DNA from: Escherichia phage SUT_E1520
Sequence record: OQ885479
Reading direction: 5' to 3' (one strand)
Length of the DNA stretch: 64,000 nt
Numbering within the stretch: position 1 is the first letter of the stretch; each line of letters opens with the position of its first letter. The translations under genes were made by a program, and so were the position numbers. Under the pieces are notes generated by a model. That model was not told the origin of the DNA. It saw only the letters and a list, made by a program, of their open reading frames with translations, and did not search any database. Of this stretch, positions 7,758 to 38,018 are shown piece after piece.

Positions 7758-7833
7758 GCGGTTAAGCACACGGGTTGTGCCGCAGGCCTTCCAAGCCTCG
7801 CTGAGTAGGGTTCGATTCCCTCTAGCCGCTCCA
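7758..7833 (+). tRNA. tRNA-Gly (UCC)
   Basis: Acceptor GCGGTTA/TAGCCGC, loop CTTCCAA, T-loop GGTTCGATTCC, CCA. Confidence 0.6.
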
Positions 7834-7849
7834 ACTTTAAGGAAACATT

Positions 7850-8258: not shown

Positions 8259-8266
8259 CGGGTTCT

Positions 8267-8353
8267 GCTGGGTTGGCAGAATGGTTGAATGCACCTGATT
8301 TGTAATCAGGAGGAGTAATCCCGTTACAGGTTCGAATCCTGTGCCCAGCACCA
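8267..8353 (+). tRNA. tRNA with long variable region; anticodon read as UGU (Thr type) but identity uncertain
   Basis: Acceptor GCTGGGT/GCCCAGC, anticodon arm CCTGA-TTTGTAA-TCAGG, T-arm ACAGGTTCGAATCCTGT, CCA. Confidence 0.5.
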
Positions 8354-8367
8354 ACTTAAGGACTATT

Positions 8368-8535
8368 ATGTTTAAATTATTAGTAGTTATCTGGTATAGT
8401 CAATCAAATAGAGCGAATACCTCCCACGTTATAGACTTTAATACTAAAAATGAAGCTGAAAAAGCATATTCTAATTTAATAGAACGTAATAAAGAATCTC
8501 GTAGTATAGTTTATGAAGTGACTAAACTTTATTAA
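8368..8535 (+). CDS. hypothetical small protein (start moved to the in-frame ATG after the tRNA)
   Basis: Track ORF 8341..8535 begins inside the tRNA; SD AAGGACT precedes the ATG at 8368. Confidence 0.4.
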   Translation: MFKLLVVIWYSQSNRANTSHVIDFNTKNEAEKAYSNLIERNKESRSIVYEVTKLY

Positions 8536-8543
8536 AAATTCAT

Positions 8544-8572
8544 TTGCTTTCTCTCTTATTTATTGTTATAAT
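8544..8572 (+). promoter_or_regulatory. T5-type early promoter
   Basis: TTGCTT-N17-TATAAT; leader ATAAATTAATGAGAGGG. Confidence 0.6.
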
Positions 8573-8602
8573 ATTTATATAAATTAATGAGAGGGAAGCC
8601 AA

Positions 8603-8896
8603 ATGAAACGTTATCTTTCTGTTGTGTTCCAAACTGGTGGTCAACGCTATACCTATGAATTTCCTGGCTCTTGGAAGATCAAAGAAGGTGATCAAGTAGT
8701 AGTGTTAACACCGCGTGAGGGTTTTAAGGTAGTAACGGTTAAGCAAGTATTTCCAAAAGAGCATGAACCAGCTAAAGGCATTCGCTATAAGATGATTCAT
8801 GGTGTAGTTCGTCAAGTACCACGAGCGGAAGTCGAAATCAAAGTAGATAAAGATGGTAAACTTAAATATACCTCTTGCTTAGACGAGTTGCTATAA
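8603..8896 (+). CDS. hypothetical protein
   Basis: ORF track; promoter and SD upstream. Confidence 0.55.
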   Translation: MKRYLSVVFQTGGQRYTYEFPGSWKIKEGDQVVVLTPREGFKVVTVKQVFPKEHEPAKGIRYKMIHGVVRQVPRAEVEIKVDKDGKLKYTSCLDELL

Positions 8897-9102
8897 TGAG
8901 GATTACTTTTACAGAAAAGATCATGAGTAATGGTGTTATGATCATTACCGCATGGGATGGTAATCAGTGGTGTAGTGTTTCAGGTATTAAGCCTGAAGAA
9001 CAAACACTAGAAAATATCTCAAAGATTAAGCGAAGAATGGCAGAACGTGCACGACTTCCAGGTGCACCTAGAAATGGCAAACGTTCTGCTGCAAAATGTT
9101 AA
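8896..9102 (+). CDS. hypothetical protein (start at TAATG overlap)
   Basis: Track ORF 8875..9102; in-frame ATG at 8896 overlaps the upstream stop. Confidence 0.45.
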   Translation: MRITFTEKIMSNGVMIITAWDGNQWCSVSGIKPEEQTLENISKIKRRMAERARLPGAPRNGKRSAAKC

Positions 9103-9103
9103 T

Positions 9104-9180
9104 GCTTCGGTAGCTTAGCGATCTAAAGCACTCGGCTGATAACCGAGAGATCGGGGGTTTAAATCCCTCCCGGAGTACCA
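9104..9180 (+). tRNA. tRNA-Ile (GAU) with a non-canonical T-loop (TTTAAAT)
   Basis: Acceptor GCTTCGG/CCGGAGT with G-U pairs, anticodon arm CTCGG-CTGATAA-CCGAG, CCA. Confidence 0.6.
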
Positions 9181-9194
9181 AATTAAGGTTATGT

Positions 9195-9353
9195 ATGGAA
9201 GATATTGATAAACTTGCAAAAATATTTGCTGAACTTTCTGATATAGAAGTCTCAGAGAACTCTAGAATAGATATGTTTATTGACCAATATAGAGAAGGAC
9301 TTATCAGTAAGAAAGATCTTCTAGATCTAACCTATAAAGAATTAACTAGTTAG
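9195..9353 (+). CDS. hypothetical small protein (52 aa)
   Basis: ATG after SD AAGG; below the track cutoff. Confidence 0.35.
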   Translation: MEDIDKLAKIFAELSDIEVSENSRIDMFIDQYREGLISKKDLLDLTYKELTS

Positions 9354-9423
9354 TTGGCAGAGTGGTTATGCACCTCCTTCATACGGAGCGACTACAGTGG
9401 TTCAAATCCACTACTAACTACCA
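9348..9423 (+). tRNA. tRNA with CAU anticodon (third CAU tRNA; Met or Ile2 type)
   Basis: Acceptor AGTTAGT/ACTAACT, loop TTCATAC, T-arm AGTGGTTCAAATCCACT, CCA. Confidence 0.6.
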
Positions 9424-26294: not shown

Positions 26295-27179
26295 ATGTAT
26301 AACTTTAAAGATAAACTAAGACAAAACGCTGGTAAAACAAAACCTAAGAAAAATAATAGTGTTCCTGATGCTAAAGTACTTCCATTTCCTGAACTAACCC
26401 AGGAAGAAAAAGATAAACTAGCATTTATGTTCGATGCACTTATAGGATTAAGTGGACGACTGTACTCCACCCTTAGTATTAATGAGAAACGTCTAGTAGA
26501 GATGTTTTGTAAACGTTACCAAGTTACTTCAAAAGGCAACGCCCATAAAGAAGGTGAAAAAGCATTCACAGTCTTAAAAATCAGTGCATATGCACATCGT
26601 TTCTTAGTTTATGGGTTACAGATGGAATACTTCACCATTCCACCATTTAAGTCATTTCACATCTTTGAAGATGAACGAATGAATATTGATGATCTCTATG
26701 GAGATACATACAAGTACTCAGGAAGTCCATTCCATGATGCATTAAGAAGCTATCCTACTAGTTATTTACCAGTTAGGGCATCACAGGGTAAAGCTAGCAT
26801 CTTTGCGGTATACTCAGGATCTAAAGCATCGGATCTAGAAACTTATATATTTAAAGAGCGTAAATCTGTGCTTCCAGATGAAGCATTATATAATAATCCA
26901 TTGCTTCCAGAAAAAGAACCCGAGAAAATTGATGTAACCCCACCAACCCCATCTGATTCTCAATATTTAATCTACGAAAAACAAGTTAAGCTATCTCTAG
27001 AGATTGGTTTAGTCACACCGCTTGCTGCAGCATTCATCAATAGATACCTAGAAATTCCTAACGAGTTCCACACACGTTATAATACGAACATTCAGATAAC
27101 AGATGAACTAATTGCACTAGCAAAAGATACACCTACTGACACTGAGGCGTACCAAAAAGCATACCAAGAGTTACTGTAA
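26295..27179 (+). CDS. hypothetical protein (294 aa)
   Basis: ORF track; SD GGGAGATAATA. Confidence 0.6.
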   Translation: MYNFKDKLRQNAGKTKPKKNNSVPDAKVLPFPELTQEEKDKLAFMFDALIGLSGRLYSTLSINEKRLVEMFCKRYQVTSKGNAHKEGEKAFTVLKISAYAHRFLVYGLQMEYFTIPPFKSFHIFEDERMNIDDLYGDTYKYSGSPFHDALRSYPTSYLPVRASQGKASIFAVYSGSKASDLETYIFKERKSVLPDEALYNNPLLPEKEPEKIDVTPPTPSDSQYLIYEKQVKLSLEIGLVTPLAAAFINRYLEIPNEFHTRYNTNIQITDELIALAKDTPTDTEAYQKAYQELL

Positions 27180-27264: not shown

Positions 27265-27600
27265 AACTCTATGAGTTAATAGAATTAACCATTTAGAGTT
27301 GCCACACAGAAGGTGTGGTGGTTCAGTAATTTAAAATTACTAACTTGTAGCGGAGGATACGGAGCGACAGGACAAGTTAATAAGTAATTTAATATAAATT
27401 GCTAGAAACATCACGAGACCTTCTGGCGGGGGCAAAGCTCTATATGAGAACCCTGGGGGATCTTATATTTAAAATAAAAGTAAAACTTTTGACCACATAA
27501 TTTACATTCAAGATGATACACCTGTTGCCGCTCATCTGCTAGGATGGCACAACACTTTCCTAGAAACTCCAGAGTTCTCACGAAATACTCACTCTTTCTA

Positions 27601-27672
27601 GGGCGGTTCTCCTAAGTTTCTAGGAACATATACTAGGCGGTTTAATACAGGGCGGTTATGGGGAGGGCGGTT
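27601..27672 (+). repeat. four copies of GGGCGGTT interleaved with repeated TTTCTAGGAACATATA units
   Basis: Direct repeats seen in the sequence. Confidence 0.6.
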
Positions 27673-27715
27673 ATTTCTAGGAGACATTTTTTGAAAACAC
27701 ATTTCCAGAAATTAC

Positions 27716-28316
27716 TGTCGGATTTGCACATTGTGTTTCTAGAAATTTATGGTCGGATTTGCACAATTGCCTAAGTTTTTAGGAACATATAATCTCTTGA
27801 AAATGGCAGCATTATTTCGGGCCGAAGGCCCATGATTGCCTGAGTTTTTAGAGCCACAGAAACTTTCACTTGTCAAGCTATTTTGCCCCATTTAGCTAAT
27901 AAGATTTTACTTTATCTGCACTAATCTCAAATTAACCCAAATCTTCTCAACTCTTCCCCAAAATCCCCGCAAATCAGGTGCTACGCACCAAACATGCGCC
28001 CCTCTCGCAGTTCCCTCAAATTTTTCTCGATCTCTCAACTTCTCCCCAAACTCTTACAATCACACACTCTCCAATCGAAGTCACAAAAATCTTGTCGGAT
28101 TCGCACAAATAAACCCATGTCGGATTTGCACATATTCTAGTTAATTCCACAGGATTGATGCGCAGCATCGGATTGCTGGAGTTTTTAGGAAAATTCATTG
28201 TCGGATCCGCACATTATAAAAATTTTTCGGGTCGGATTTGCACACTACCAAAAATTGTCGGATTCGCACATACACGCCCACGCGTAATCCATGGGGGCAA
28301 ATGTCGGATTTGCACA
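27716..28316 (+). repeat. iteron-like array: eight copies of the 15-mer TGTCGGATYYGCACA
   Basis: Copies near 27716, 27751, 28093, 28118, 28199, 28230, 28256 and 28302, irregularly spaced. Confidence 0.7.
27880..28080 (+). other. G-depleted, C/A-rich tract of about 200 bp on the plus strand
   Basis: Strong strand compositional asymmetry, almost no G. Confidence 0.6.
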
Positions 28317-28349
28317 AAAGCGCAGGGCAATTGCCCTGCTTGCCTGAAT

Positions 28350-28545
28350 ACGAATGATAATGAGAATCATTCTCATTTAAAAAGCGGAATGTGAATGATA
28401 ATAATTCGCATTTAAGAATGGAAGTGAGAATTATTCAGGAAGTGAAACGATTCTCATTTAAAAAGTGGAATGATTATTAGTTAGATAGTGAAATGCGAAT
28501 GATACTGATTCGTATTTAAGAATGGAAGTGAGAAACACTATTATT
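28350..28545 (+). repeat. tandem degenerate repeats carrying a Fur-box-like 19-bp perfect palindrome AATGAGAATCATTCTCATT
   Basis: Palindrome at 28359-28377; repeated GAATGATAAT... and ATTCGCATTTAAGAATGGAAGTGAGAA units. Confidence 0.6.
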
Positions 28546-28660
28546 TAAGTTATCCACAGACTTATCAACAGCACGATTTGACTTGACAAAATCCTAGCCA
28601 TTTTGAGGCGTTATCAACAGACTTATCAACAGCTTATCCTACTGTATAAATATACAGTAT
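28541..28660 (+). repeat. left arm of an imperfect inverted repeat of about 110 bp, with DnaA box TTATCCACA and LexA-like box CTGTATAAATATACAG
   Basis: Reverse complement of 32386-32500 aligns along most of its length; DnaA box at 28550-28558, LexA-like box at 28642-28657. Confidence 0.6.
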
Positions 28661-28854
28661 TCCTATGCAGTGAATAATTCTAATATACAGCTAAAACGCT
28701 CTCAAACGCATTCTAACGCGTTTAATTTTGTTGGGGATACTAAAACACGGGTAAAATTGGAGGAGGCTTAGAAATTAGTTAGCGAGCTAACGATCACACA
28801 AGGCGACACGTAACACCCTAATCATTAGCAGGCTAACCATCGCGGGCGCGGTTA

Positions 28855-28873
28855 AATGAGAATCATTCTCATT
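28855..28873 (+). promoter_or_regulatory. second copy of the 19-bp palindrome AATGAGAATCATTCTCATT (Fur-box-like)
   Basis: Exact repeat of the palindrome at 28359-28377. Confidence 0.5.
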
Positions 28874-28915
28874 TGAAAATTGGGGGCACTCCCTGATAGT
28901 TGCGCCCCGTGATTA

Positions 28916-29110
28916 TTAGTCTGGTAGTCGATGCGTGATTTTTTCCTCCTCCCCGTAGGAATCCACCAAATACTGATAATAACCATCGTGATCATAAATC
29001 ACTTTATCATATTCGCCACGCTCGACCGCTTGCCGATTCTCCGGCGTATCTGGCACGTAAAAAACATCAACCATTGTACTGATCTTGGTTACAACTATTT
29101 TATTACTCAT
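28916..29110 (-). CDS. hypothetical protein (64 aa), last gene of the minus-strand operon
   Basis: ORF track; SD-like sequence upstream on the minus strand. Confidence 0.45.
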   Translation of the reverse strand: MSNKIVVTKISTMVDVFYVPDTPENRQAVERGEYDKVIYDHDGYYQYLVDSYGEEEKITHRLPD

Positions 29111-29211
29111 AATAACTCCCTAGTAAATATATTTTTGCCAATAGTGGCGAATGTTATCGCCACCAGCGGAATCATTAGCGGCCTTACTATTACCAACGAA
29201 AATATATAATC

Positions 29212-29571
29212 TCATTGCGCCACCTTTCGAAACGCTGTTTCAATACTATCCGCAGTGGATTGAATATATGCGCCTTTCATTATCAGGCGCTCGGTACATA
29301 CCTTGCGGAAAATATTAATAAAATCATCTTCATTTTCTGCAATTAATGCTTCACCCATAACCTGAACGTCACAAGATGCAAAGGTCAAAAATTGAAACGC
29401 TAGTTCACGGGCAACGACCGCATTAATTTTATAATGTGCCTTGCCCTCATAAATATTAATAACGCCCTTATAAGCTGGGGAAAGCTGATTTAAATAGTTT
29501 GCTAATAATGCTGGGCGGCAATTAGCAACAAAACGATTGCCTTCATAAATTATCATTTGCATAGCTCCCAA
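29212..29571 (-). CDS. hypothetical protein (TTG start per track; first ATG at 29562)
   Basis: ORF track. Confidence 0.5.
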   Translation of the reverse strand: MGAMQMIIYEGNRFVANCRPALLANYLNQLSPAYKGVINIYEGKAHYKINAVVARELAFQFLTFASCDVQVMGEALIAENEDDFINIFRKVCTERLIMKGAYIQSTADSIETAFRKVAQ

Positions 29572-29675
29572 ATAGTTCCGCCGATGATCATTAGCTGACT
29601 AATAATTATCAGAATAAAACCAATTGAAGGCAGGACGCCCCAAAAACGAAAAGCCGTTTTAATTTGCTGAATCAT
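29553..29675 (-). CDS. small membrane peptide (40 aa)
   Basis: Overlapping-coupled with its neighbours; single TM segment; below the track cutoff. Confidence 0.3.
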   Translation of the reverse strand: MIQQIKTAFRFWGVLPSIGFILIIISQLMIIGGTIWELCK

Positions 29676-29802
29676 TTGTTAGCCTCCCGATTAGATAGCC
29701 AGATAAAAGCATAAAGATCCCCAATGAAATGGGGTCATTTTTAAATAAGGTGGCGATAAAACCGCCAGCCATTGCAAGGATAATAACAATAACGCTTTTC
29801 AT
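29659..29802 (-). CDS. small membrane peptide (47 aa)
   Basis: ATGA overlap with the upstream stop; TM segment; below the track cutoff. Confidence 0.3.
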   Translation of the reverse strand: MKSVIVIILAMAGGFIATLFKNDPISLGIFMLLSGYLIGRLTNDSAN

Positions 29803-30011
29803 AGTACCCCACGAAACGCAGCGTAAAAGGTGGCAAAGTGTTTAACTGTTTCAGCTATCACGTTGCCGCGCTTATCAAATTTTTTCTCGGTAACACGAAA
29901 GGCATTTTTGTTACGTGCTACATATTCGATTTTACAATCTTCCCGCTCGAACGTGTTAACATCCACCAGCTTAAAGCCTTTCGAACGTGCAAGGGAAACG
30001 TTGCGGATCAT
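29799..30011 (-). CDS. hypothetical protein (70 aa)
   Basis: ORF track; SD AAGGAGA upstream. Confidence 0.45.
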   Translation of the reverse strand: MIRNVSLARSKGFKLVDVNTFEREDCKIEYVARNKNAFRVTEKKFDKRGNVIAETVKHFATFYAAFRGVL

Positions 30012-30013
30012 TT

Positions 30014-30163
30014 TTATTCTCCTTTACTAGTCATGCAGCCCAGCAGATAAGAAAACGCAGCAATGCCAGCGCCAATAATAACGGCGTGAACGCCAAAAGC
30101 TATTGCAAACAACGATAAAATAGCGCCCAAGATACCCGCCAGAATAGCTCGAAAAATAACCAT
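30014..30163 (-). CDS. small membrane peptide (49 aa)
   Basis: SD GGAGAAT upstream; TM segment; below the track cutoff. Confidence 0.3.
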   Translation of the reverse strand: MVIFRAILAGILGAILSLFAIAFGVHAVIIGAGIAAFSYLLGCMTSKGE

Positions 30164-30213
30164 TTTTTTTTATTCTCCTAGTCAGTGAGGGATATAATAT
30201 CCCCCGTTACTAA

Positions 30214-30444
30214 TTACATTAAAACAATTTTTGCAGCTTGTTTTTTAGTACAGTGTTCCGCTTTCAGCGTGTCCAGCAAAAAGCCCGCCGTTTGCTGATC
30301 GATTTTATCGGCGTTGTATAGTTCTTGGATGGTGTTATAAGTTTTAGCAATGCCGAACTCCTGCACCATTTCATGAATAATGGCGCGGTTAGATACCCAG
30401 CCTTGAGCGGTGAACAGATGAGTAGCAGAAGAGTAAGCAACCAT
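30214..30444 (-). CDS. hypothetical protein (76 aa)
   Basis: ORF track. Confidence 0.45.
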   Translation of the reverse strand: MVAYSSATHLFTAQGWVSNRAIIHEMVQEFGIAKTYNTIQELYNADKIDQQTAGFLLDTLKAEHCTKKQAAKIVLM

Positions 30445-30548
30445 TTTAAGCCTCCAAATTTTTGGGAAATTTTTAATCCACCGTTTTGGTGTAAAAGCAT
30501 TATAACAAAAAAGGCCACCATAAAAGGCGACCTTTACAAAACTTTACA

Positions 30549-31043
30549 TTAAACTACCTGTAAGGATTCAACATTGAAACATCGTTTTAATTCATCATGT
30601 AAAACAGCGTATTCCTCCCATCGGGTATTATCAGGAATATAAACAAGCTGTTTTAATCGATTTGCGTATATTACCGCTTTATTATCAATTATTTCGACGC
30701 CACCATATTTAATAATTAATTTCATGACGGAATTAATAGGATCGCCGCCGTTTACATATGTGCCGGATTTACTTAATTGATAATGATAAAGGCCAGCATA
30801 TACGTTTTCATTTTCATACCATTCGCCAGTTTCTTCGTCTTCATAGCCATCGCTACCAAAACGAGAAGCATTATCAATAGCCATTTCATGAGCGAAAGCG
30901 TCCAGATCCGTACCAGCAGGAACAAAGTATTCCTCGGTATTCCCTTCCCCGCAATAGCCAGTATGACAATCGACTAAAATGATCATATCATGTTTAGCCG
31001 TGCTCACTTCCCCTAGCGAGAAGCCGTATTTTTCCTCAGCCAT
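30549..31043 (-). CDS. hypothetical protein (164 aa)
   Basis: ORF track; SD AGGAGG upstream. Confidence 0.55.
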   Translation of the reverse strand: MAEEKYGFSLGEVSTAKHDMIILVDCHTGYCGEGNTEEYFVPAGTDLDAFAHEMAIDNASRFGSDGYEDEETGEWYENENVYAGLYHYQLSKSGTYVNGGDPINSVMKLIIKYGGVEIIDNKAVIYANRLKQLVYIPDNTRWEEYAVLHDELKRCFNVESLQVV

Positions 31044-31108
31044 TTATTAGCCTCCTATTAATTAACAAGGGAGTAGTAAAGCGGGGAAATAATCCCCGCT
31101 AAATATTA

Positions 31109-32119
31109 TTACTCGCTTTCGGTGTTAGTGGTAAAAGTAGAAATATCAATACCTTTCACCATTTCATCAATCATTTCAGCGATGTTAAAACTTTGCACCA
31201 TTTCCAGCATTGCCGCTTCCATAGCCGCCCCCGCTACCGCTTTCGCCTTTTGGTTAGTCGGTGCGTACTGGTCAACCGCTACACTCAGCAGGTTAGCGAT
31301 CACTACACGACCAATAGGTGTATCGATATAACCTTTGATCATGAATGGTGCTTTTTTAGCCGCTACTTTCGTAATTTGAGTTAATGCAATTTTACCCGCC
31401 TCCAGTTTTGCAGCATTTACAACAGCGGATTTATTGGCGGCAACGATGTTAGCAATCTTGGTCATGGTGTTTTTTCCTTTGTTTTCAGTAGTTTGAGTGT
31501 TAACGCTTTGAGTGTTAGAATTTACAGCATGGTTTTCTACGCTGTCAATAATCTGATCTTCATCTTTCCAGAAAGAAAAACCAGCGCTTTCTATATCCCC
31601 ATCATAAATATATGGGTATAGCTCCCGTGGTAACAAAAAATTACCGTCGCCATCAAAAGCCATTATACCGGTATATTGAGATCCGTCGTTATCCGGCTTA
31701 TGCCATCCAGCGGGTAAATACTTCCAGATAACATCTAAAAATCCCTCAATGCTAGAAAGTCCATTTATCAGATCAAGTCCAATAAGCTCAAAACTATTTA
31801 TATTAAATGATTGACGGCCTGAATTGCTATGATACGCAACAATATTATTACCCTGCGCAACAATAAAATCGGTATCCGGCCCCGCTCCCCTGCCTGTAAA
31901 GATATGGCAATCCCGATTATATAAAACTAGCGTTGCCCCTTGTCTATATAAGGGTAGAAAACTATCCATATCATAAGCGTCATAATCATCAAAAAAGTTT
32001 TGATGAATAGTTTCAATCTTGTTAATAAAATGTTTAATGCTGGTTGACTTGCTACCGTCTAGCAGGTTGCGCAATGCACCCTTTAATACGGTGGCATTAT
32101 CAGGTTTATACAGCCTCAT
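31109..32119 (-). CDS. hypothetical protein (336 aa), first gene of the minus-strand operon
   Basis: ORF track; SD GAGGAGG upstream. Confidence 0.6.
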   Translation of the reverse strand: MRLYKPDNATVLKGALRNLLDGSKSTSIKHFINKIETIHQNFFDDYDAYDMDSFLPLYRQGATLVLYNRDCHIFTGRGAGPDTDFIVAQGNNIVAYHSNSGRQSFNINSFELIGLDLINGLSSIEGFLDVIWKYLPAGWHKPDNDGSQYTGIMAFDGDGNFLLPRELYPYIYDGDIESAGFSFWKDEDQIIDSVENHAVNSNTQSVNTQTTENKGKNTMTKIANIVAANKSAVVNAAKLEAGKIALTQITKVAAKKAPFMIKGYIDTPIGRVVIANLLSVAVDQYAPTNQKAKAVAGAAMEAAMLEMVQSFNIAEMIDEMVKGIDISTFTTNTESE

Positions 32120-32385
32120 TTGTTAGGCCTCCTCGTTAATCGGTGAGTGAATGATAAAGGTAAATTTCTAGCATAGGCAAATATTATTTTACCTTTTTAT
32201 TTTCCTTGCCTAGCGCCTATTTTTATGATAACCGCGCAGCGGTGCAATAAAGAGCAAACCACGGCGAAGCCACCAGGCCGACGCATTGAGGCTTTACTTT
32301 AATATTACCTTACAGCGTTTAGCTCGTTAGAATGCGATTTAAGCCGCTTAAAATTGATTGCAGTTGTTAACACTACCTTTTTACC

Positions 32386-32500
32386 CTGTATAAATATACA
32401 GTAGGATAACCTGTGGATAAGTCTGTGTAAAAGTCCTTATATCGCCGCCTATCGTGTCAAGTCAAAAAGTGCTGTGGATAACTTTGTGTATAACTTAAAT
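32386..32500 (+). repeat. right arm of the inverted repeat, with LexA-like box and two TGTGGATAA DnaA boxes
   Basis: LexA-like box at 32386-32401; DnaA boxes at 32412-32420 and 32473-32481. Confidence 0.6.
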
Positions 32501-32830
32501 GATAGTGGTTCTCACTTAGCTAGATGATTTCTTATAGTTATTATTTCTCATTAATTTATATGTATATTATATATCATGAAATAGTTAGTTGGCTAATGAG
32601 ATTTTTCCGTGATTAATAGTCTGCTAATAATTCAGGTCGTTACAATCCACCAGCATGATTATCATTCTAGCAATTATTAGTCTGCTATCTTTCCGATGCA
32701 TACTAACAAATAAAAGTCAATTAATTTATTTCATAAAATAAGTAGTTATCCACTGGAAAATAAAAGTCAAGTGGATAACTAGGAAAATTTCATTTTTGCT
32801 TTTGGGGATAAGTTATCAACAAGGCTAGAA
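32500..32830 (+). other. AT-rich region with further DnaA-box-like 9-mers; origin-like or host-factor binding region
   Basis: TTATCCACT near 32746, GTGGATAAC near 32771, TTATCAACA near 32813; very AT-rich 32520-32720. Confidence 0.4.
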
Positions 32831-33225
32831 TGCGCCTAAAACGCTCCAGAACGCAATAAAGTTTTTAGCCATCCCATCATAAGGGGATAAGCCGTTTATC
32901 GTTACCACGAGCTTTTTAGATTTTGTCAAGTAGGGCAAAGCAAATATAAATGAAAAAATTACTTGCCTATTTGCTTTATTTTGTGGTATTCGCGCGCCCG
33001 TTTCTTTTAATTTTAGGCCGTCGCCGCACGGTGTCCGGTGAGTTTTACCTTTACATTTCTTTACAAAAATAAGGTTGCGCCATTTTCGGGAATCCCCTAT
33101 TATTTATCTCGTAGGGCGGCAATGACGAACTACACGGCGGGAAGTTTACCGCCACGCTCTTTAAAAATTGGGTACATCTTAAAGCCTATCGGCGGTAAAC
33201 TTATTCATTATAAGGAATCGACGAT

Positions 33226-33429
33226 ATGAAACAAACGCTTTTGATCACTGGCAAGCCTATTAAGGCACTAGATAGCAAAACAAAAAATTTGTTGACAGTA
33301 GCTCAAAGATCAGTAAGATATAGATTCACGCAGTACAAGAAAGGTCGCCAGCAAGGTCTGGAAATGATCTGGCGAAATATTATGATTGACCTAAAAGAAA
33401 ATCATAAAAAATTGCAAAAAATTGTTTGA
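33226..33429 (+). CDS. hypothetical basic protein (67 aa), flanked by a 25-bp inverted repeat
   Basis: ORF track; inverted repeat arms at 33169-33193 and 33437-33461. Confidence 0.3.
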   Translation: MKQTLLITGKPIKALDSKTKNLLTVAQRSVRYRFTQYKKGRQQGLEMIWRNIMIDLKENHKKLQKIV

Positions 33430-33659
33430 CAACCTAGCCGATAGGTTTTAAGATGTACCCAGTTCGATAAGAGCGATAACTTGATAAAATTTGACGGTCG
33501 GTGCTTACCATAATGCATCCCGCCCCCTAACGGGATATAGCGGCCTACGTGGAGTTCTTTAAAATTGATTATATTGGCGAGCGGATTGTTACTTATTACC
33601 TGCTGTTACTTTCTAGCAGGTAATGCGGAACAATCCCCAAATAACTAGGAGTTTATATT

Positions 33660-33911
33660 ATGCAAAACGTTATTACCGCGCCGAAAGTTGGTCAATCCGT
33701 CTTCATTCCTTTCGTTACTAAAACGGATGAATTAACCGGAAAGGCCGAACGTATTAAAGGTGCGGCGCTTATGCCGTTCGATACAATCGACGCGGTATAC
33801 GCTGAAAATGAACGTAGTAACAACGGCAAGCCCGTTTTTAGCGTTCGCGTTAAATCCGGCGATGTTGTAAAGGTTGTTCAACGCAACGAAAAATGGGAAG
33901 CTGTATTGTAA
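33660..33911 (+). CDS. pre-early protein (hypothetical)
   Basis: ORF track; SD TAGGAG; 10-bp-stem hairpin upstream at 33595-33624. Confidence 0.5.
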   Translation: MQNVITAPKVGQSVFIPFVTKTDELTGKAERIKGAALMPFDTIDAVYAENERSNNGKPVFSVRVKSGDVVKVVQRNEKWEAVL

Positions 33912-34007
33912 ATTAGTGTTAACTTTATATCCCCTTATTTCAGGGGGATATAACGATTAACATTAAGTTAATCTAATCCCTTAAATTAAACTAATAGGAG
34001 TTACATC

Positions 34008-34415
34008 ATGACTAACGCTAAAACCGCAAAATTCGCATGGAATGAAGAAAACACTCAGAAAGCTGTTTCCATGTATCAACAGTTAATTAATGAAAACGGT
34101 TTAGATTTCGCAAATAGCGACGGTTTAAAAGAGATTGCAAAAGCAGTGGGCGCGGCTTCTCCCGTATCCGTTCGGTCAAAATTGACCAGCGCAAAAGCAT
34201 ATCAAAAAAGCGATAAGCCTCGCAAAGTTGGCGGCGGTAGTTCAATCCGCAAAGCTCATTATGTACGCGTTATTGCAAAACACGCTATCGATTCCGGCAT
34301 TATCAAAGATGCCGATGATCTGGCAAGCCTTGAAAGTGCAAAACTTGAAACGCTGGACGCAGTAGCGCAATTGTTAGGCGTTGCCGATGAAGTAAAACAA
34401 GCCGCAGGCGAATAA
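34008..34415 (+). CDS. A2-like pre-early protein (putative DNA-binding)
   Basis: 135 aa, immediately upstream of A1; assignment by position and size only. Confidence 0.4.
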   Translation: MTNAKTAKFAWNEENTQKAVSMYQQLINENGLDFANSDGLKEIAKAVGAASPVSVRSKLTSAKAYQKSDKPRKVGGGSSIRKAHYVRVIAKHAIDSGIIKDADDLASLESAKLETLDAVAQLLGVADEVKQAAGE

Positions 34416-34507
34416 TAGTTATACCTTGCCCCCTTTTTTAGTGAGGGGGCAATAATATAACTGTTTAGCGATAGTTATTTTCTTCCCTTAAATCAGGAGT
34501 TTTTAAA

Positions 34508-34705
34508 ATGATCTTTTATCCTACTGAATCATTAATTCTAGGCTTGTTTATTATGGCGGCCTCGTTATTGTTCGCTTATTTTCAAAATGATTTAGATTCG
34601 TATTATTTTAAACGTAAATCTAAGTTAGCAAAGCGTTTAGGTCTTATTTGTTTTATTGCCGCCGTTGCTTGTGGTGTTAGTTCTAGCCTTATGCCTTTAA
34701 ATTAA
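34508..34705 (+). CDS. small membrane protein
   Basis: ORF track; two hydrophobic segments. Confidence 0.45.
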   Translation: MIFYPTESLILGLFIMAASLLFAYFQNDLDSYYFKRKSKLAKRLGLICFIAAVACGVSSSLMPLN

Positions 34706-34795
34706 TGTTGCAAATTATAACGCCTATTATTCGAGGCGTTATATTTGGCAATATTGCCGTTATTAATCTAATCCCTTTAATGGAGTTTTATTATC

Positions 34796-36460
34796 ATGAT
34801 TATTTCCGCAGAAAAACAAACCGTTATCCTGAAAATGGCCGCTGACTTTAATTTCTATGGTAAACGTCTGCGCGCTACTAAACTGGAAGTCTGCGACGAT
34901 ATATCAAAAGCGGTCTACGATACAACGAAACACTCCACCGCCATTTGTGATTGGTTGGAAGCAAATAAACCAGCGAAACCGAAAGCGGCGAAAGTAGCAA
35001 AAGCCATTAAAAACGACGAGCGCCCAGAAGCGGCGGGGGTTGTTTCTAGCACGGTTGAACAGTGGGAAGTAAAACAAGGCAAACGCTTTATTATTACATC
35101 GATTCAGAATAATACTTTCCCGCATAAAAACTTTTTGGCCTCACTTGAACAATATGCCAAATTTATCGGCGCTGATTTGCTCGTTTCTAAGTATATTTAT
35201 AATAAAAACGGTTTTCAAAATGGGGAAGGTGCGGATGGAATCAAATATGATTCCGCGTTTGATAAATATATTTGCAGCAAAAACGTGTTTTTAAATAACC
35301 GCCGTTTCGCTTTCATGGCTGAAATTAATGTTTTGCCAACCGCAGATTATCCGCTTTCTGGATTCGCAGAAACTGCAACGGCTTTAAATATTGAAGGTCT
35401 GGCAATTGGTCACGCTAAAATCACCGCTGAAAGTGTGCCAGCTTTAAAAGGTGAAGTAGTGCGCCGTATGTATTCAACCGGAACGGCAACGCTCAAAAAC
35501 TACATTCAGCAGAAAGCAGGACAAAAGGCCGAGGCGCTGCATAACTTCGGTGCGCTTATTGTTGAGTTCGACGACGACGGGGAATTTTTTGTACGCCAGC
35601 TTGAAACGATGGACGAAAGCGGGGTGTTTTATGATCTGAACGTTTGCGCTACTCCTGCCGGATGCTATGAAACATCGGGGCATGTTTTAGGCTTGCAGTA
35701 TGGCGATATTCACGCCGAAAAATTAGATGATGATTGTGCCGTTGCGTCATGGGCTGGCGAGAATAGTTTGCTTGATATTCTTAAACCAAAATATCAGCTT
35801 ATTCATGACGTGCATGATTTTACATCGCGCAATCATCATAACCGTGCATCCGGTGTATTCCTAGCGAAACAGTATGCCGCCGGACGTGATAAAGTTCTGG
35901 ATGATCTTATCGATACGGGGCGCGTGCTGGAATCAATGGAACGTGATTTTAGTCAAACAATCATCGTAGAATCGAATCACGATTTGGCGCTATCCCGCTG
36001 GCTTGATGATCGTAATGCTAACATTAAAGACGATCCCGCCAACGCCGAACTATATCACCGCCTAAATGCTGCAATTTACGCGGCAATCGGTGAGCATGAC
36101 GATACTTTCAACGTGCTAGATTATGCGTTGCGCAAGGTTGCAGGTTGTGAGTTTAACGCCATTTTCCTAACCACTGACCAATCTTTCAAGATTGCAGGTA
36201 TTGAATGCGGCGTACACGGTCACAACGGCATTAACGGCAGCCGTGGCAACCCGAAACAATTTAAGAAATTGGGCAAGTTAAACACGGGGCATACGCATAC
36301 CGCCAGCATTTACGGCGGCGTATACACCGCTGGCGTAGCTGGTAGTCTGGATATGGGTTACAACGTTGGCGCGTCAAGCTGGACGCAGACGCATTTAATT
36401 ACCTATGCAAACGGTCAGCGCACTTTGATTGACTTTAAAAACGGTAAATTCTTTGCGTAA
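34796..36460 (+). CDS. A1: A1-like pre-early protein, calcineurin/Mre11-like metallophosphoesterase (probable DNase)
   Basis: 554 aa; motifs GDIHAE, HDFTSRNHHN and GHTHTAS. Confidence 0.7.
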   Translation: MIISAEKQTVILKMAADFNFYGKRLRATKLEVCDDISKAVYDTTKHSTAICDWLEANKPAKPKAAKVAKAIKNDERPEAAGVVSSTVEQWEVKQGKRFIITSIQNNTFPHKNFLASLEQYAKFIGADLLVSKYIYNKNGFQNGEGADGIKYDSAFDKYICSKNVFLNNRRFAFMAEINVLPTADYPLSGFAETATALNIEGLAIGHAKITAESVPALKGEVVRRMYSTGTATLKNYIQQKAGQKAEALHNFGALIVEFDDDGEFFVRQLETMDESGVFYDLNVCATPAGCYETSGHVLGLQYGDIHAEKLDDDCAVASWAGENSLLDILKPKYQLIHDVHDFTSRNHHNRASGVFLAKQYAAGRDKVLDDLIDTGRVLESMERDFSQTIIVESNHDLALSRWLDDRNANIKDDPANAELYHRLNAAIYAAIGEHDDTFNVLDYALRKVAGCEFNAIFLTTDQSFKIAGIECGVHGHNGINGSRGNPKQFKKLGKLNTGHTHTASIYGGVYTAGVAGSLDMGYNVGASSWTQTHLITYANGQRTLIDFKNGKFFA

Positions 36461-36515
36461 TTAAATTATTTCCCTAGCGGCTTGAAATATAGCCGCTATT
36501 TCAGGAGTCACAAAA

Positions 36516-36773
36516 ATGAAAGTTACATTACCCAAAACACTGGACGAAAAAGTATTCATTTCACCGGATGAAATGGAATCTGATAAAGTTTACAGCTTCG
36601 GGCCTATCCTAGCCGCTAAAACTAATACTGATGGCGTTATTTCCGTAGATTACCGTGATAATGATGTTGTTCCTTTTGATGACGATAGCGCTTTTTATGA
36701 GTGGCTAAGTGATAATAATCTACCCGTAAACGGTGAATTAACGCCGTACCAGATGCAGATTATTATCAAATAA
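36516..36773 (+). CDS. pre-early protein (hypothetical)
   Basis: ORF track. Confidence 0.5.
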   Translation: MKVTLPKTLDEKVFISPDEMESDKVYSFGPILAAKTNTDGVISVDYRDNDVVPFDDDSAFYEWLSDNNLPVNGELTPYQMQIIIK

Positions 36774-36811
36774 TTTAAATCCATTATTAAACTAATTGGG
36801 GTTTTATAAAT

Positions 36812-37204
36812 ATGAAAAAGCAAAATATTCCATTCGATCGCGCTCAGTCTTCCATTGTTCTGGTTTATTCTAATGGTGAACGTTATCACGTCGAGGCGTG
36901 GCACGTTATTGATGAATTGTTAGATTTCAATGATGCGATGCAGGTTACAACATTTGCATATATGCAAGGCAAACTAACAAGCCATATTAAAGCAAAAGGC
37001 GTTTATATTGACACGGTGAAACAAGAAACGATTATCATCGACGCAGTAAAATCCGGCCTAGCCTTTGCAGTTGTCGCGCCTTGCCTCGCTTGCCTTGATG
37101 ATCAGCTAGCGAGCGCAAAGGTATATACCTGCGCGGGTATTCGTTCCCATGTATCAGGTGAGGATATTAGTTTTATTGCTGATGCGTTGGCTTATGGTCT
37201 TTAA
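36812..37204 (+). CDS. pre-early protein (hypothetical)
   Basis: ORF track. Confidence 0.5.
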   Translation: MKKQNIPFDRAQSSIVLVYSNGERYHVEAWHVIDELLDFNDAMQVTTFAYMQGKLTSHIKAKGVYIDTVKQETIIIDAVKSGLAFAVVAPCLACLDDQLASAKVYTCAGIRSHVSGEDISFIADALAYGL

Positions 37205-37283
37205 TAGTTGATTTATTATTACCCGCTTATAAATAGCGGGTAATGCTGGATAAACTAAATCCCTTTAATGGAGAACGTAACAA

Positions 37284-38018
37284 ATGAATAAAGCTATTAT
37301 GAATATTTCCCGTAATTTCCCGCATATTTCCCGCGTCATGATTTGGGATTTAGACGGCACTATCATTAATTCTTTCCATCGTGTAGCGCCTTGCTTTGAT
37401 AGTGAGGGCAATTTAGATTTAAATAAGTATAAAAATGAAGCCTGCAAACATCATTTAATAATGCAAGATACTTTATTGCCATTGGTTGAATATATGCGCC
37501 AATGTATGAATGATGCAAATACTTTAAACATTATTTGCACCGCTCGACTAATGAGCAAGTCGGACTATTATTATTTGCGTAAACAAGGGTTGCGCGGTCG
37601 TGGTGATAGTAATATCCGTGTATTTTCCCGCGATACACTACACAAATATTTTGAAGCTGATAAAGTTAGCGAGATATACCACAGCAAAGACGCCATTTAT
37701 AAATCGTATTATTTTGAATTATTTAAACAATTATATCCAAACGCTGACTTTACAATGATTGACGATCATAAAGGCGTGCTATCAGCGGCGGCATCATACG
37801 GATTTAAAACGCTGGACGCGCAAGCCATTAACGATATTCTATCAATCGGCGTTGCATTGATAGGTGAAACCTTTATCGATGAATCTCTCGATGATGATAA
37901 TGATTATCAGTTCCTAGCTGATCGTTTGAAATTATGTTGGGAAAGTATGACCGAGGAAGAACGCGCAGAATATAGTTGCAGCCCGCAACAATATATTGAG
38001 AAATTAAAAGTTGCGTAA
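37284..38018 (+). CDS. dmp: 5-prime-deoxyribonucleotidase, HAD-superfamily phosphatase
   Basis: 244 aa; HAD motif I DLDGT near the N-terminus and a later DD motif. Confidence 0.7.
   Translation: MNKAIMNISRNFPHISRVMIWDLDGTIINSFHRVAPCFDSEGNLDLNKYKNEACKHHLIMQDTLLPLVEYMRQCMNDANTLNIICTARLMSKSDYYYLRKQGLRGRGDSNIRVFSRDTLHKYFEADKVSEIYHSKDAIYKSYYFELFKQLYPNADFTMIDDHKGVLSAAASYGFKTLDAQAINDILSIGVALIGETFIDESLDDDNDYQFLADRLKLCWESMTEEERAEYSCSPQQYIEKLKVA

What the first reader, a model, noticed from the sequence alone, without database searches (positions are those of the whole stretch)
28916..32119. Minus-strand operon of nine uncharacterised genes inside the pre-early region
A 336-aa and a 164-aa protein followed by 76-, 49-, 70-, 47-, 40-, 119- and 64-aa products, three of them tiny membrane peptides, with overlapping coupled starts. 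I recognise none of them. In T5-like phages the first DNA injected carries host-takeover functions, so these are strong candidates for undescribed anti-defence or host-shutoff proteins.
Basis: inference. Interest (0 to 1): 0.65.

Follow-up and report, generated by a model that had tools for sequence, protein, structure and literature searches.

The report
T5-type right-hand pre-early gene cluster
This is the already described "right-hand" pre-early gene cluster (T5.011–T5.017) of a T5-like phage. It is real and is expressed from the first DNA injected, but six of the nine genes have named T5 counterparts: one is a characterised DNA nickase and two are known to be toxic to E. coli.

Summary
The nine minus-strand ORFs exist exactly as listed. 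The window is a Tequintavirus 99.9% identical to Escherichia phage EC148. The locus is the right-hand pre-early unit of the first-step-transfer DNA, the counterpart of T5 6495–9157.

Gene mapping to T5:
- 336 aa = T5.011 (90%)
- 76 aa = T5.012
- 49 aa = T5.013
- 70 aa = T5.014 (100%)
- 119 aa = T5.015 (93%; the real start probably gives 114 aa)
- 64 aa = T5.017
- The 164-, 47- and 40-aa ORFs are patchy accessory genes that T5 lacks.

So "I recognise none of them" does not hold. T5.015 is the published Ung-dependent abasic-site nickase. T5.011, T5.013 and T5.015 are toxic in E. coli. A T5 mutant lacking hegG–017 is viable. No anti-defence role has been shown for any of these genes.

New points from this work:
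- RefSeq and PHROGs appear to put the nickase label on the wrong gene (the 70-aa one).
- The 164-aa acidic protein models confidently but matches no solved fold.
- The last ~125 residues of T5.011 are a widespread, strongly constrained module joined to many unrelated N-termini (HIRAN in 10 of 63 sampled).
- Suppressed synonymous variation just upstream hints at a nested promoter or internal start.

Verdict: already known; modest interest.

The parts
32151..32180 (-). Sigma-70 promoter of the unit (TTGCCT-18-TATCAT) with an A/T-rich upstream stretch; GAGGAGG Shine-Dalgarno before the 336-aa gene
   Evidence: The promoter scan finds it. The 120 nt upstream of the ATG align almost base-for-base with T5 6380-6500, which contains T5's annotated promoter 6411-6489. 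The 2026 T5 preprint describes that promoter as experimentally characterised.
31109..32119 (-). 336-aa T5.011 orthologue (Pfam DUF7566): variable N-terminal domain (1-~187), low-confidence linker (~188-214), strongly conserved C-terminal module (~213-336)
   Evidence: 90% identical to T5.011. DUF7566 scores 384 bits against a cut-off of 27. The AF2 model is poor, pLDDT 61. The C-terminal module has amino-acid identity 0.96-1.00 with ordinary synonymous divergence. 682 clusters at 50% identity match, mostly through the C-terminal module only. T5.011 is toxic and disorganises the nucleoid.
31463..31548 (-). Candidate nested signal inside the 336-aa gene: TTGACA-18-TAAATT (31548-31519), conserved linker DNA, then AAAGGA-N9-ATG (Met219, 31465-31463) at the start of the C-terminal module
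   Evidence: The promoter scan finds the site and the nucleotide alignment shows its conservation. Synonymous diversity is lowest at codons 191-216: 0.026 against a gene mean of 0.155, reached by 24 of 5000 permutations. A Met lies within +-4 residues in 49 of 63 diverse family members, against about 17 expected. This is a hypothesis, not shown.
31080..31100 (-). GC-rich hairpin (AGCGGGGATTATTTCCCCGCT) after the 336-aa gene; weak or partial terminator
   Evidence: T5 annotates a putative rho-independent terminator at the same position, after T5.011.
30549..31043 (-). 164-aa acidic protein (net charge -17, pI 4.5); accessory gene absent from T5 (PHROG 6741)
30510..30535 (-). Intrinsic terminator after the 164-aa gene (10-bp stem followed by TTTTGTT)
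   Evidence: BF23 annotates a terminator and a predicted promoter at the same place.
30214..30444 (-). 76-aa T5.012 orthologue, function unknown
   Evidence: 84% identical to T5.012. PHROG 5145. Variable sites 7/6/42 by codon position. Non-toxic in both T5 screens.
30014..30163 (-). 49-aa two-TM membrane peptide, T5.013 orthologue (lacks 10 residues relative to T5)
   Evidence: 67% identical to T5.013. Hydropathy supports membrane insertion. T5.013 caused lysis-like loss of integrity in one screen and was not reported toxic in the other.
29799..30011 (-). 70-aa basic protein (pI 10), T5.014 orthologue; carries the probably misplaced database label 'Ung-dependent endonuclease'
   Evidence: 100% identical to T5.014 and 93-100% identical in all sampled loci. 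PHROG 4227 carries the label. Non-toxic in both screens. It is named 'ORF015' in another T5 record.
29659..29802 (-). 47-aa hydrophobic peptide; accessory, weakly constrained
   Evidence: Not in T5. Present in about half of the loci. Variable sites 15/9/17 and truncated in 6 of 11 relatives. ATGA overlap with the 70-aa gene.
29553..29675 (-). 40-aa hydrophobic peptide; accessory, in a minority of relatives
   Evidence: Not in T5. Present in about a quarter of the loci. GGGAGG Shine-Dalgarno. Variable sites 2/3/8 from few sequences.
29212..29556 (-).
   Evidence: 93% identical to T5.015. UniRef names its cluster 'DNA-(apurinic or apyrimidinic site) endonuclease'. The biochemistry is in PMC8201957. 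Toxicity was confirmed in the 2026 preprint.
29120..29215 (-). 31-aa ORF annotated in EC148 and BF23; doubtful gene
   Evidence: No codon-position bias, 4/5/6. Read in frame into the 64-aa gene in some relatives (P0245). T5 has T5.016 at this position.
28916..29110 (-). 64-aa acidic protein, T5.017 orthologue, function unknown
   Evidence: 87.5% identical to T5.017. Variable sites 12/15/43. Non-toxic in both screens.
28883..28908 (-). Possible terminator hairpin (GGGGCGC...GTGCCCC followed by AATTTTC) directly after the last gene
   Evidence: Read from the sequence; the automatic scan did not call it. BF23 annotates a terminator 7 nt after its last gene.
32386..32517 (.). Upstream arm of a 132-nt inverted repeat carrying paired DnaA boxes (TTATCCACA/TTTTACACA and TTATCCACA/TTATACACA)
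   Evidence: Inverted repeat I1; DnaA-box matches. Corresponds to Davison's IRC-spacer-IRD (bioRxiv 10.1101/866236).
28526..28657 (.). Downstream arm of the same inverted repeat (79% complementary), in the injection-stop region
   Evidence: Corresponds to Davison's IRD'-spacer-IRC'.

Best explanation
The locus is the right-hand pre-early transcription unit (T5.011-T5.017 type) of a Tequintavirus. It lies in the terminal-repeat DNA that enters the cell first.

Shown or directly supported:
- The locus sits between the divergent pre-early control region and the injection-stop repeats, and is bracketed by a 132-nt DnaA-box inverted repeat.
- It follows a sigma-70 promoter nearly identical to T5's annotated one, so host RNA polymerase should read it in the first minutes of infection.
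- Translation of the distal genes is coupled through overlapping stop and start codons.
- Two hairpins, after the 336-aa and 164-aa genes, probably grade expression along the unit.

From the literature on the T5 orthologues:
- The 114-aa protein binds host uracil-DNA glycosylase and nicks the abasic sites it makes. This selectively damages dUMP-containing host DNA and arrests replication and division.
- The 336-aa protein is toxic and disorganises the nucleoid.
- The 49-aa two-TM peptide can compromise the envelope.
- The whole block is dispensable on a laboratory strain.

Inferred: the unit is a mosaic set of non-essential, host-directed accessory genes that assist takeover or matter only in some hosts. 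It has a conserved core (011, 012, 013, 014, 015, 017) and swappable extras (164, 47, 40 aa; T5.016 and hegG elsewhere). For the 336-aa protein I infer a two-part design: a highly constrained C-terminal module that supplies a common activity or docking function, and a fast-evolving N-terminal domain that supplies specificity.
For: - Identity of the phage and locus.
- Gene-by-gene orthology with T5.
- Promoter identity with T5.
- Terminators and coupled junctions.
- Coding constraint.
- Core versus accessory pattern in 32 loci.
- Bracketing inverted repeat with DnaA boxes.
- T5.015 mechanism, and toxicity of 008, 011 and 015: PMC8201957.
- Toxicity of 011, 013 and 015 with their phenotypes, and viability of the hegG-017 deletion: bioRxiv 10.64898/2026.04.02.716235.
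- Two-part design of T5.011.
Against: - Nothing contradicts the identification.
- The functional statements rest on T5 orthologues at 67-100% identity, not on this phage.
- T5.013 toxicity was seen in one screen but not the other.
- Toxicity on over-expression need not reflect the natural role.
- The biological purpose of the unit is unknown, because deleting it costs little in the laboratory.
- The 164-, 47- and 40-aa genes have no experimental data at all.
Confidence: 0.9

Rival explanations
1. Anti-defence island. One or more of these genes would encode the still unmapped pre-early function that makes Tequintavirus second-step DNA insensitive to restriction-modification, CRISPR-Cas or RecBCD.
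For: - T5, BF23 and other Tequintaviruses resist Type I, II and III R-M and CRISPR unless the sites lie in the first-step DNA, and the responsible gene is unknown (PMC10644984; Davison).
- The genes are made at the right time.
- Their accessory content is patchy, as in counter-defence islands.
- They are dispensable on a defence-poor laboratory strain, and the authors themselves raise conditional essentiality.
Against: - No homology to any known anti-defence or defence protein.
- The T5 mutant lacking 13 pre-early genes, including this block, still grows on an E. coli strain that presumably has RecBCD. This argues against an indispensable RecBCD-protective role here.
- A1, which degrades host DNA and is universal in the family, is an equally good or better candidate.
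- The known activities in the unit attack the host chromosome or envelope rather than defence proteins.
Confidence: 0.25
2. The 164-aa acidic protein is a DNA-mimic inhibitor, Ocr/ArdA/gp5.9-like, of restriction enzymes or RecBCD.
For: - Net charge -17 and pI 4.5.
- Pre-early expression context with its own strong Shine-Dalgarno.
- Patchy distribution.
- Confidently folded, compact protein.
Against: - T5 lacks the gene yet is fully restriction-insensitive.
- Its invariant residues (T-G-x-C-G, N-G-G-D-P, R-L-K-Q-L-V-Y) are not acidic surface patches.
- Some relatives carry a CxxC...CxxC insert, which is more typical of a zinc-binding protein than of a mimic.
Confidence: 0.1
3. Part of the list is not genes. 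The smallest ORFs (31, 47 and perhaps 40 aa) would be chance or decaying reading frames in intergenic spacers rather than functional peptides.
For: - The 31-aa ORF shows no third-position excess (4/5/6).
- The 47-aa ORF shows almost none (15/9/17; 22 synonymous against 21 non-synonymous variant codons) and is shortened in 6 of 11 relatives.
- Both are absent from many relatives.
- The 47-aa ORF lacks a clear Shine-Dalgarno.
Against: - The 49-aa peptide is clearly constrained (12/5/22). The 40-aa peptide shows the same trend (2/3/8) from only three sequences, and it has a good Shine-Dalgarno.
- The 47-aa ORF keeps an ATGA coupling and a hydrophobic N-terminal segment.
- Small membrane peptides are hard to judge from so few substitutions.
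Confidence: 0.35
4. The toxic phenotypes are over-expression artefacts. On this view the unit serves phage-internal purposes, such as modulating the injection pause, the switch from pre-early to early transcription, or superinfection exclusion through the membrane peptides.
For: - The unit is flanked by the DnaA-box inverted repeats implicated in the injection stop.
- Three products are membrane peptides.
- The minimal-FST T5 mutant makes smaller plaques.
- The two screens disagree about 013.
Against: - T5.015 has a specific host partner (Ung), and host ung mutations abolish its toxicity. That is a genuine host-directed mechanism.
- A1 and A2 alone suffice for second-step transfer in the minimal mutant.
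Confidence: 0.15

Closest known systems
Bacteriophage T5 genes T5.011-T5.017 (right half of the first-step-transfer DNA, NC_005859 6495-9157)
   Same: - Same position, orientation relative to A1/A2/dmp, promoter, gene order and flanking inverted repeats.
- Six orthologous genes at 67-100% amino-acid identity.
   Different: - This phage has three extra genes (164, 47 and 40 aa).
- It lacks T5.016 and the neighbouring hegG.
- Its T5.013 homologue lacks 10 residues relative to T5.
Phage BF23 genes BF23_00010-00018 (OR083247)
   Same: - Almost the same layout: 330, 164, 76, 51, 70, 41, 119, 31 and 64 aa.
- A terminator follows the 164-aa gene.
- This is the common Tequintavirus arrangement.
   Different: - BF23 lacks the 40-aa gene.
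- Its 011 homologue is only 77% identical, with the divergence in the N-terminal domain.
T5.015, Ung-dependent AP-site endonuclease (Mahata et al., PNAS 2021)
   Same: The 114-aa product is 93% identical over its full length and sits in the same UniRef-named cluster.
   Different: - Its activity has not been tested for this allele.
- Public annotation pipelines attach this name to the neighbouring 70-aa gene instead.
Pfam DUF7566 / PHROG 4263 and 16673
   Same: The 336-aa protein matches the model end to end at 384 bits.
   Different: - The Pfam model treats the protein as one unit.
- My searches indicate that only the last ~125 residues are the widespread element, joined to at least 30 unrelated N-terminal types in 62 sampled proteins, with HIRAN in 10 of 63.
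Early host-takeover 'monkey-wrench' genes of T7 and T4 (e.g. T7 gp0.4, T4 Ndd/Alc), from general knowledge
   Same: Small, non-essential early proteins that are toxic when expressed alone and target the nucleoid, cell division or the envelope.
   Different: There is no sequence or fold relationship, so the analogy is functional only.

Membership tests
T5-type right-hand pre-early unit (T5.011-T5.017) | Located in the terminal-repeat / first-step-transfer DNA, between the divergent pre-early control region and the injection-stop repeats | tested here: met
   Homologous DNA lies inside the annotated LTR of MM-1, T5 and BF23. In the window, T5.009, hdi, 007, A2, 005, A1, 002 and dmp lie at 33122-38015 on the + strand, and the first early gene, T5.018, lies at 26295-27176.
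T5-type right-hand pre-early unit (T5.011-T5.017) | Orthologous genes in the same order | tested here: met
   BLASTP gives 011 90%, 012 84%, 013 67%, 014 100%, 015 93% and 017 87.5%, all collinear. T5.016 is absent.
T5-type right-hand pre-early unit (T5.011-T5.017) | Pre-early sigma-70 promoter upstream of the 011 gene | tested here: met
   The upstream sequence is near-identical to T5 6380-6500, which holds the annotated promoter. Promoter activity itself was not tested.
T5-type right-hand pre-early unit (T5.011-T5.017) | Transcribed in the first minutes, before second-step transfer | not testable with these tools
   The literature for T5 and Bas33 supports this. There are no expression data for this phage.
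T5.015 Ung-dependent AP endonuclease | Full-length sequence orthology to T5.015 (NC_005859 numbering, 114 aa) | tested here: met
   93% identity over 114 aa. The cluster is named an AP endonuclease by UniRef.
T5.015 Ung-dependent AP endonuclease | Binds Ung, nicks abasic sites, and its toxicity depends on ung | not testable with these tools
   Shown only for the T5 protein.
T5.015 Ung-dependent AP endonuclease (as labelled by PHROG 4227 and RefSeq on the 70-aa protein) | The labelled protein should be the one characterised in the paper, which was toxic and is gene 015 of NC_005859 | tested here: not met
   - The 70-aa protein is T5.014 in NC_005859 and was non-toxic in both screens.
- Both papers use NC_005859 numbering, in which 013 is the two-TM protein.
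- The 70-aa protein is called 'ORF015' in another T5 record, which probably caused the mix-up.
Pfam DUF7566 | Score above the gathering threshold | tested here: met
   384.1 bits against 27, covering residues 2-336.
DNA-mimic anti-restriction proteins (Ocr/ArdA type), considered for the 164-aa protein | Strongly acidic surface | tested here: met
   29 Asp+Glu against 12 Lys+Arg, pI 4.46.
DNA-mimic anti-restriction proteins (Ocr/ArdA type), considered for the 164-aa protein | Fold or sequence related to a known mimic | tested here: not met
DNA-mimic anti-restriction proteins (Ocr/ArdA type), considered for the 164-aa protein | Presence tracks restriction insensitivity | tested here: not met
   T5 is restriction-insensitive but lacks the gene.
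HIRAN domain, considered for the N-terminal domain of the 336-aa protein | Profile similarity to the HIRAN-type N-termini found in other DUF7566 proteins | tested here: not met
   hhalign probability 0.2%. No Pfam HIRAN hit in the window protein.
Small phage membrane peptides (holin- or toxin-like), considered for the 49-, 47- and 40-aa products | One or two hydrophobic transmembrane-length segments | tested here: met
   Kyte-Doolittle windows above 1.6 in all three.
Small phage membrane peptides (holin- or toxin-like), considered for the 49-, 47- and 40-aa products | Membrane permeabilisation | not testable with these tools
   Only T5.013 was tested: lysis-like phenotype in one study and not reported toxic in the other.

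The most novel reading that the evidence does not exclude
The 336-aa gene (T5.011 type) would be a nested, two-product gene built around a widespread early-phage module.
- An internal sigma-70-like promoter and a Shine-Dalgarno/ATG at Met219 would let the ~118-residue C-terminal module be made on its own as well as fused to the N-terminal domain.
- This module would be a common effector or docking domain of early proteins of many phages. It is found in 682 clusters at 50% identity and is joined to at least 30 unrelated N-terminal types in 62 sampled proteins, including DNA-end-binding HIRAN domains.
- The variable N-termini would direct it to DNA or the nucleoid.
- This could explain the nucleoid phenotype of T5.011. 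It could also explain why the wild-type T5 gene could not be cloned in pBAD24 while a synonymously recoded copy could.
Probability: 0.25. Interest if true: 0.55.

Novelty: already known. Interest (0 to 1): 0.3.

Why it matters
As a discovery, the locus adds little.
- It is the T5.011–T5.017 unit, whose members have already been screened for toxicity and deleted.
- One member has a solved mechanism.

It still matters in three practical ways.
- **Annotation error.** Annotation pipelines that use PHROGs and RefSeq appear to label the wrong gene as the Ung-dependent nickase in many T5-like genomes. This can mislead comparative and engineering work.
- **An open question since 1979.** It is still unknown which first-step gene protects T5 DNA from restriction, CRISPR and RecBCD. 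This block is one of few remaining candidate sets. The common Tequintavirus layout found here contains three genes that T5-based studies could never test.
- **A route into T5.011.** Its modular C-terminal domain and the possible nested start give a concrete way to study a toxic protein that the T5 preprint's authors say resists functional prediction.

Tried and rejected
1. **P-N25 promoter.** From memory I suspected that the classic T5 promoter P-N25 drives this unit. A pattern search with 3 mismatches found nothing in the window, so I dropped the idea.
2. **Family libraries.** Pfam, PHROGs, NCBIfam and PADLOC scans of all the products gave only DUF7566 and function-less PHROGs. The other hits were chance-level.
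3. **PDB sequence searches.** Searches with the 164-aa profile, the 114-, 70-, 76- and 64-aa proteins, and the T5.011 N- and C-terminal profiles found nothing below E=0.5.
4. **Fold searches.**
   - afdb50 was not available.
5. **HIRAN.** The T5.011 N-terminal domain is not a hidden HIRAN domain.
6. **Stand-alone C-terminal modules.** The example I checked is a gene call truncated at a contig edge, so I make no such claim.
7. **Context retrieval.**
   - The C-terminal alignment was too diverse for the search for related loci.
   - Viral and metagenome scans with the HIRAN member found nothing.
   - The exact look-up worked.
8. **RNA families.** Rfam found no RNA family in 26.5-39 kb.
9. **Literature leads that did not touch these genes.** Rad anti-retron is in the tRNA region. 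The others were OLD, retron Eco2, where the trigger is A1, HIDEN-SEQ and the accessory-gene screens.
10. **Primers.** Mahata's supplementary primers, which would settle the 014/015 identity, are not held. Davison's 2015 review is not held either.

Full report
**What is there.** Listing ORFs over 27.5-33.5 kb reproduces all nine minus-strand ORFs at the coordinates and lengths given. GC skew turns negative over 27-32 kb. The DNA is 99.9% identical to Escherichia phage EC148 and matches 526 phage records, nearly all T5-like phages of Salmonella, Escherichia and Klebsiella. In records that annotate it, the homologous stretch lies inside the left terminal repeat. In T5 this is the first-step-transfer (FST) DNA. 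In window coordinates:
- the first early gene, the T5.018 homologue, is at 26295-27176 (+);
- the non-coding injection-stop repeats follow to about 28.9 kb;
- the finding occupies 28916-32119 (-);
- the divergent left-hand pre-early genes T5.009, hdi, 007, A2, 005, A1, 002 and dmp lie at 33122-38015 (+).

So the locus is indeed inside the pre-early region.

**Gene identities.** BLASTP against the T5 proteins gives a collinear mapping.

| Window ORF | T5 counterpart | Identity |
|---|---|---|
| 336 aa | T5.011 | 90% |
| 164 aa | none | - |
| 76 aa | T5.012 | 84% |
| 49 aa | T5.013 (10 residues shorter than T5) | 67% |
| 70 aa | T5.014 | 100% |
| 47 aa | none | - |
| 40 aa | none | - |
| 119 aa | T5.015 | 93% |
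| 64 aa | T5.017 | 87.5% |

T5.016 is missing from the window. BF23 has almost the same layout as the window: 330, 164, 76, 51, 70, 41, 119, 31 and 64 aa. A presence/absence table over 32 loci shows a near-universal core (011, 012, 013, 014, 015, 017) and patchy extras (164, 47, 40 and 31 aa, T5.016). The 164-aa gene occurs in 344 phage records, including Klebsiella, Pectobacterium and Erwinia T5-like phages. T5 is therefore the odd one out, and the window shows the common arrangement.

**Are the ORFs genes?** Among distinct homologous sequences, variable sites pile up at third codon positions:
- 336-aa gene: 37/22/110
- 164-aa gene: 32/12/89
- 76-aa gene: 7/6/42
- 49-aa gene: 12/5/22
- 70-aa gene: 9/5/44
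- 114-aa gene: 25/14/87
- 64-aa gene: 12/15/43
- 40-aa gene: 2/3/8, from only three sequences

The 47-aa ORF shows little bias (15/9/17) and is shortened in 6 of 11 relatives. A 31-aa ORF that EC148 and BF23 annotate at 29120-29215 shows none (4/5/6).

All genes except the 47-aa ORF have a recognisable Shine-Dalgarno. The distal genes are linked by a 2-nt gap, two ATGA overlaps and a 17-nt overlap. The '119-aa' ORF begins at a TTG. The ATG at its sixth codon follows GGGAG, overlaps the stop of the 40-aa gene as ATGA, and gives the 114-aa form found in T5, EC148 and most cluster members.

**Signals.** The 120 nt upstream of the 336-aa gene align almost base-for-base with T5 6380-6500. That stretch holds T5's annotated promoter, here TTGCCT-18-TATCAT with a GAGGAGG Shine-Dalgarno. 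The 2026 T5 preprint lists that promoter as experimentally characterised. A GC-rich hairpin follows the 336-aa gene where T5 annotates a putative terminator. A clean intrinsic terminator follows the 164-aa gene where BF23 annotates one. So the unit is segmented rather than one uninterrupted operon.

A 132-nt inverted repeat (28526-28657 and 32386-32517, 79% complementary) brackets the unit, and each arm carries paired DnaA boxes. These are the IRC/IRD structures that Davison described in 25 T5-like phages. No Rfam family is present.

**What is known about the genes.**
- Mahata et al. cloned 13 T5 genes, including T5.011-T5.017. They found 008, 011 and 015 toxic.
- They showed that T5.015 binds uracil-DNA glycosylase and nicks the abasic sites it creates. 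This arrests replication and division, and ung mutations abolish the toxicity.
- Annor et al. (2026 preprint) expressed all 17 pre-early genes. In this unit, 011 was toxic (uneven nucleoid staining and segregation defects), 013 was toxic (lysis-like loss of integrity) and 015 was toxic (elongated cells with 'guillotined' nucleoids); neither screen lists 012, 014, 016 or 017 among its toxic genes.
- They also built a T5 mutant that lacks hegG-017 along with most left-hand genes. It is viable with smaller plaques. [quoted passage not shown]
- A CRISPRi-ART screen likewise ranked A1 and A2 as the top fitness genes.
- I found no paper that assigns an anti-defence role to any gene of this unit.
- The factor that makes Tequintavirus second-step DNA insensitive to restriction and CRISPR remains unmapped.

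**An annotation conflict.** PHROG 4227, the RefSeq product line of T5.014 and many derived records call the 70-aa protein the 'endonuclease nicking abasic sites generated by host Ung'. Several lines of evidence point the other way.
- Both experimental papers use NC_005859 numbering. That record describes T5.013 as the two-TM protein, and so do Annor et al. Gene 015 is therefore the 114-aa protein two genes downstream.
- T5.014 was non-toxic in both screens.
- UniRef names the 114-aa cluster 'DNA-(apurinic or apyrimidinic site) endonuclease'.
- The 70-aa protein is called 'ORF015' in another T5 record. This is a likely source of an off-by-one transfer.

I could not see the cloning primers, so I put this at about 85% confidence.

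I considered a DNA-mimic anti-restriction role, but it is poorly supported. T5 lacks the gene yet is restriction-insensitive. The invariant motifs are not acidic patches. Its function remains open.

**The 336-aa protein (T5.011 type).** The structure model is poor (pLDDT 61) and fold matches are generic. This agrees with the preprint's remark that 011 'resists functional predictions'. Sequence analysis is more informative.
- Across T5-like phages the last ~125 residues are 96-100% identical in amino acids while synonymous differences stay ordinary (0.15-0.26). This is protein-level purifying selection. Residues 91-150 drop to 60-65% identity.
- A profile search of 1.84 billion representative proteins finds 682 clusters, 406 of them at E<=1e-10. 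Most match only profile positions ~200-325, and the match always lies at the C-terminus of the hit.
- In 62 sampled members the module keeps its length (119-142 aa), but the N-terminal regions fall into at least 30 unrelated groups. Ten of the 63 sequences scanned carry a HIRAN domain.
- Among cultured phages the module occurs only in T5-like phages.
- A HIRAN-fused member lies in a 52-kb phage-like contig, inside a long array of small early-type genes. Another member sits next to Metallophos and SIR2 genes.
- The window protein's own N-terminal domain is not HIRAN-like.

I infer a conserved C-terminal 'business or docking' module with exchangeable N-terminal specificity domains, some of them DNA-binding. 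That fits the nucleoid phenotype but is unproven.

**A possible nested start.** The promoter scan found TTGACA-18-TAAATT inside the gene at 31548-31519. About 55 nt downstream lies AAAGGA-N9-ATG. This is Met219, at the start of the C-terminal module.
- Synonymous diversity is lowest exactly over codons 191-216: 0.026 against a gene mean of 0.155. Only 24 of 5000 column permutations reach so low a window. The structure model has very low confidence in this linker.
- A Met lies within +-4 residues of this position in 49 of 63 diverse family members, against roughly 17 expected from Met frequency.
- T5 keeps both hexamers.
- Annor et al. could not clone wild-type 011 in pBAD24 but could clone a 76%-identical recoded copy. 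Internal expression of a toxic C-terminal module would account for that.

There are reasons for caution.
- Promoter-like matches are common: 33 found against 22 expected.
- Mahata et al. did clone the wild-type gene in pBAD33.
- A recombination junction between swapped domains, or an RNA structure, could also conserve this DNA.
- The one 'stand-alone' module I checked is a truncated gene call.

I rate this reading at about 25%.

**Verdict.** However, the genes are neither unrecognisable nor undescribed, one has a known mechanism, and an anti-defence role is unproven.

The locus is an already known unit in a phage that is essentially in GenBank. Residual interest lies in four things:
- the three genes T5 lacks;
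- the misplaced nickase label;
- the unmapped anti-restriction function;
- the modular, possibly nested T5.011 gene.

Noticed in passing
window 29799-30011 (-) versus 29212-29556 (-); T5 NC_005859 T5.014 versus T5.015: RefSeq and PHROG 4227 (and so records annotated from them) call the 70-aa T5.014-type protein the 'Ung-dependent AP endonuclease'. The experimentally characterised protein is T5.015, the 114-aa gene two positions downstream. UniRef labels the 114-aa cluster correctly. The 70-aa protein is 'ORF015' in another T5 record, which probably caused the mix-up.
   Followed up: partly
window 28526-28657 and 32386-32517: A 132-nt inverted repeat (79% complementary) brackets the whole unit. 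Its arms hold five of the window's eight consensus DnaA boxes, arranged in pairs 3 nt apart. These match Davison's IRC/IRD structures, proposed to take part in the injection stop.
   Followed up: partly
window 27600-28900: The non-coding injection-stop region is dense with direct repeats. There are eight copies of a ~22-nt unit ending in TGTCGGATTTGCACA (27709-28316), five copies of AATGAGAATCATTCTCATTTAAAAA (28359-28879) and a 67-nt duplicated block (28364-28534).
   Followed up: no
window 31463-31548 (-), inside the 336-aa gene: Synonymous variation is suppressed over codons 191-216, which cover a TTGACA-18-TAAATT site and an AAAGGA-N9-ATG at Met219. The linker also contains a short direct repeat (AACACTCAA...), and relatives differ there by 5-codon indels.
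   Followed up: partly
window 32120-33121: About 1 kb between the two divergent pre-early units has no convincing gene. T5 carries the HNH homing endonuclease hegG here, and it is absent from this phage. T5.003 and T5.016 also gave no match in the window.
   Followed up: partly
window 29120-29215 and 28916-29110 (-): The 31-aa ORF is in frame with the 64-aa gene and separated from it by one stop codon and three codons. In some relatives the stop is a Gln codon, giving a 99-aa fusion (P0245).
   Followed up: partly
homologues of window 30549-31043 (alignment A1, P0013/P0014/P0016/P0018): Some homologues of the 164-aa protein carry a ~17-residue insert with two CxxC pairs, which looks like a zinc ribbon. 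It sits where the window protein has an acidic YEDEETGE loop.
   Followed up: no
window ~38000 onwards: The EC148 record starts just past dmp, at about window 38.0 kb, yet the window continues for another 26 kb. The source assembly is therefore permuted, or has the terminal repeat collapsed, relative to EC148.
   Followed up: no
L033 (Logan SRR26324628 contig, 52 kb), gene at 8001-9401: An uncultured phage-like contig encodes a HIRAN-DUF7566 fusion within a same-strand array of about 30 small genes, including HNH, NinX, a DnaJ-domain protein and RdgC. It is a possible non-T5-like home of the T5.011 C-terminal module.
   Followed up: partly
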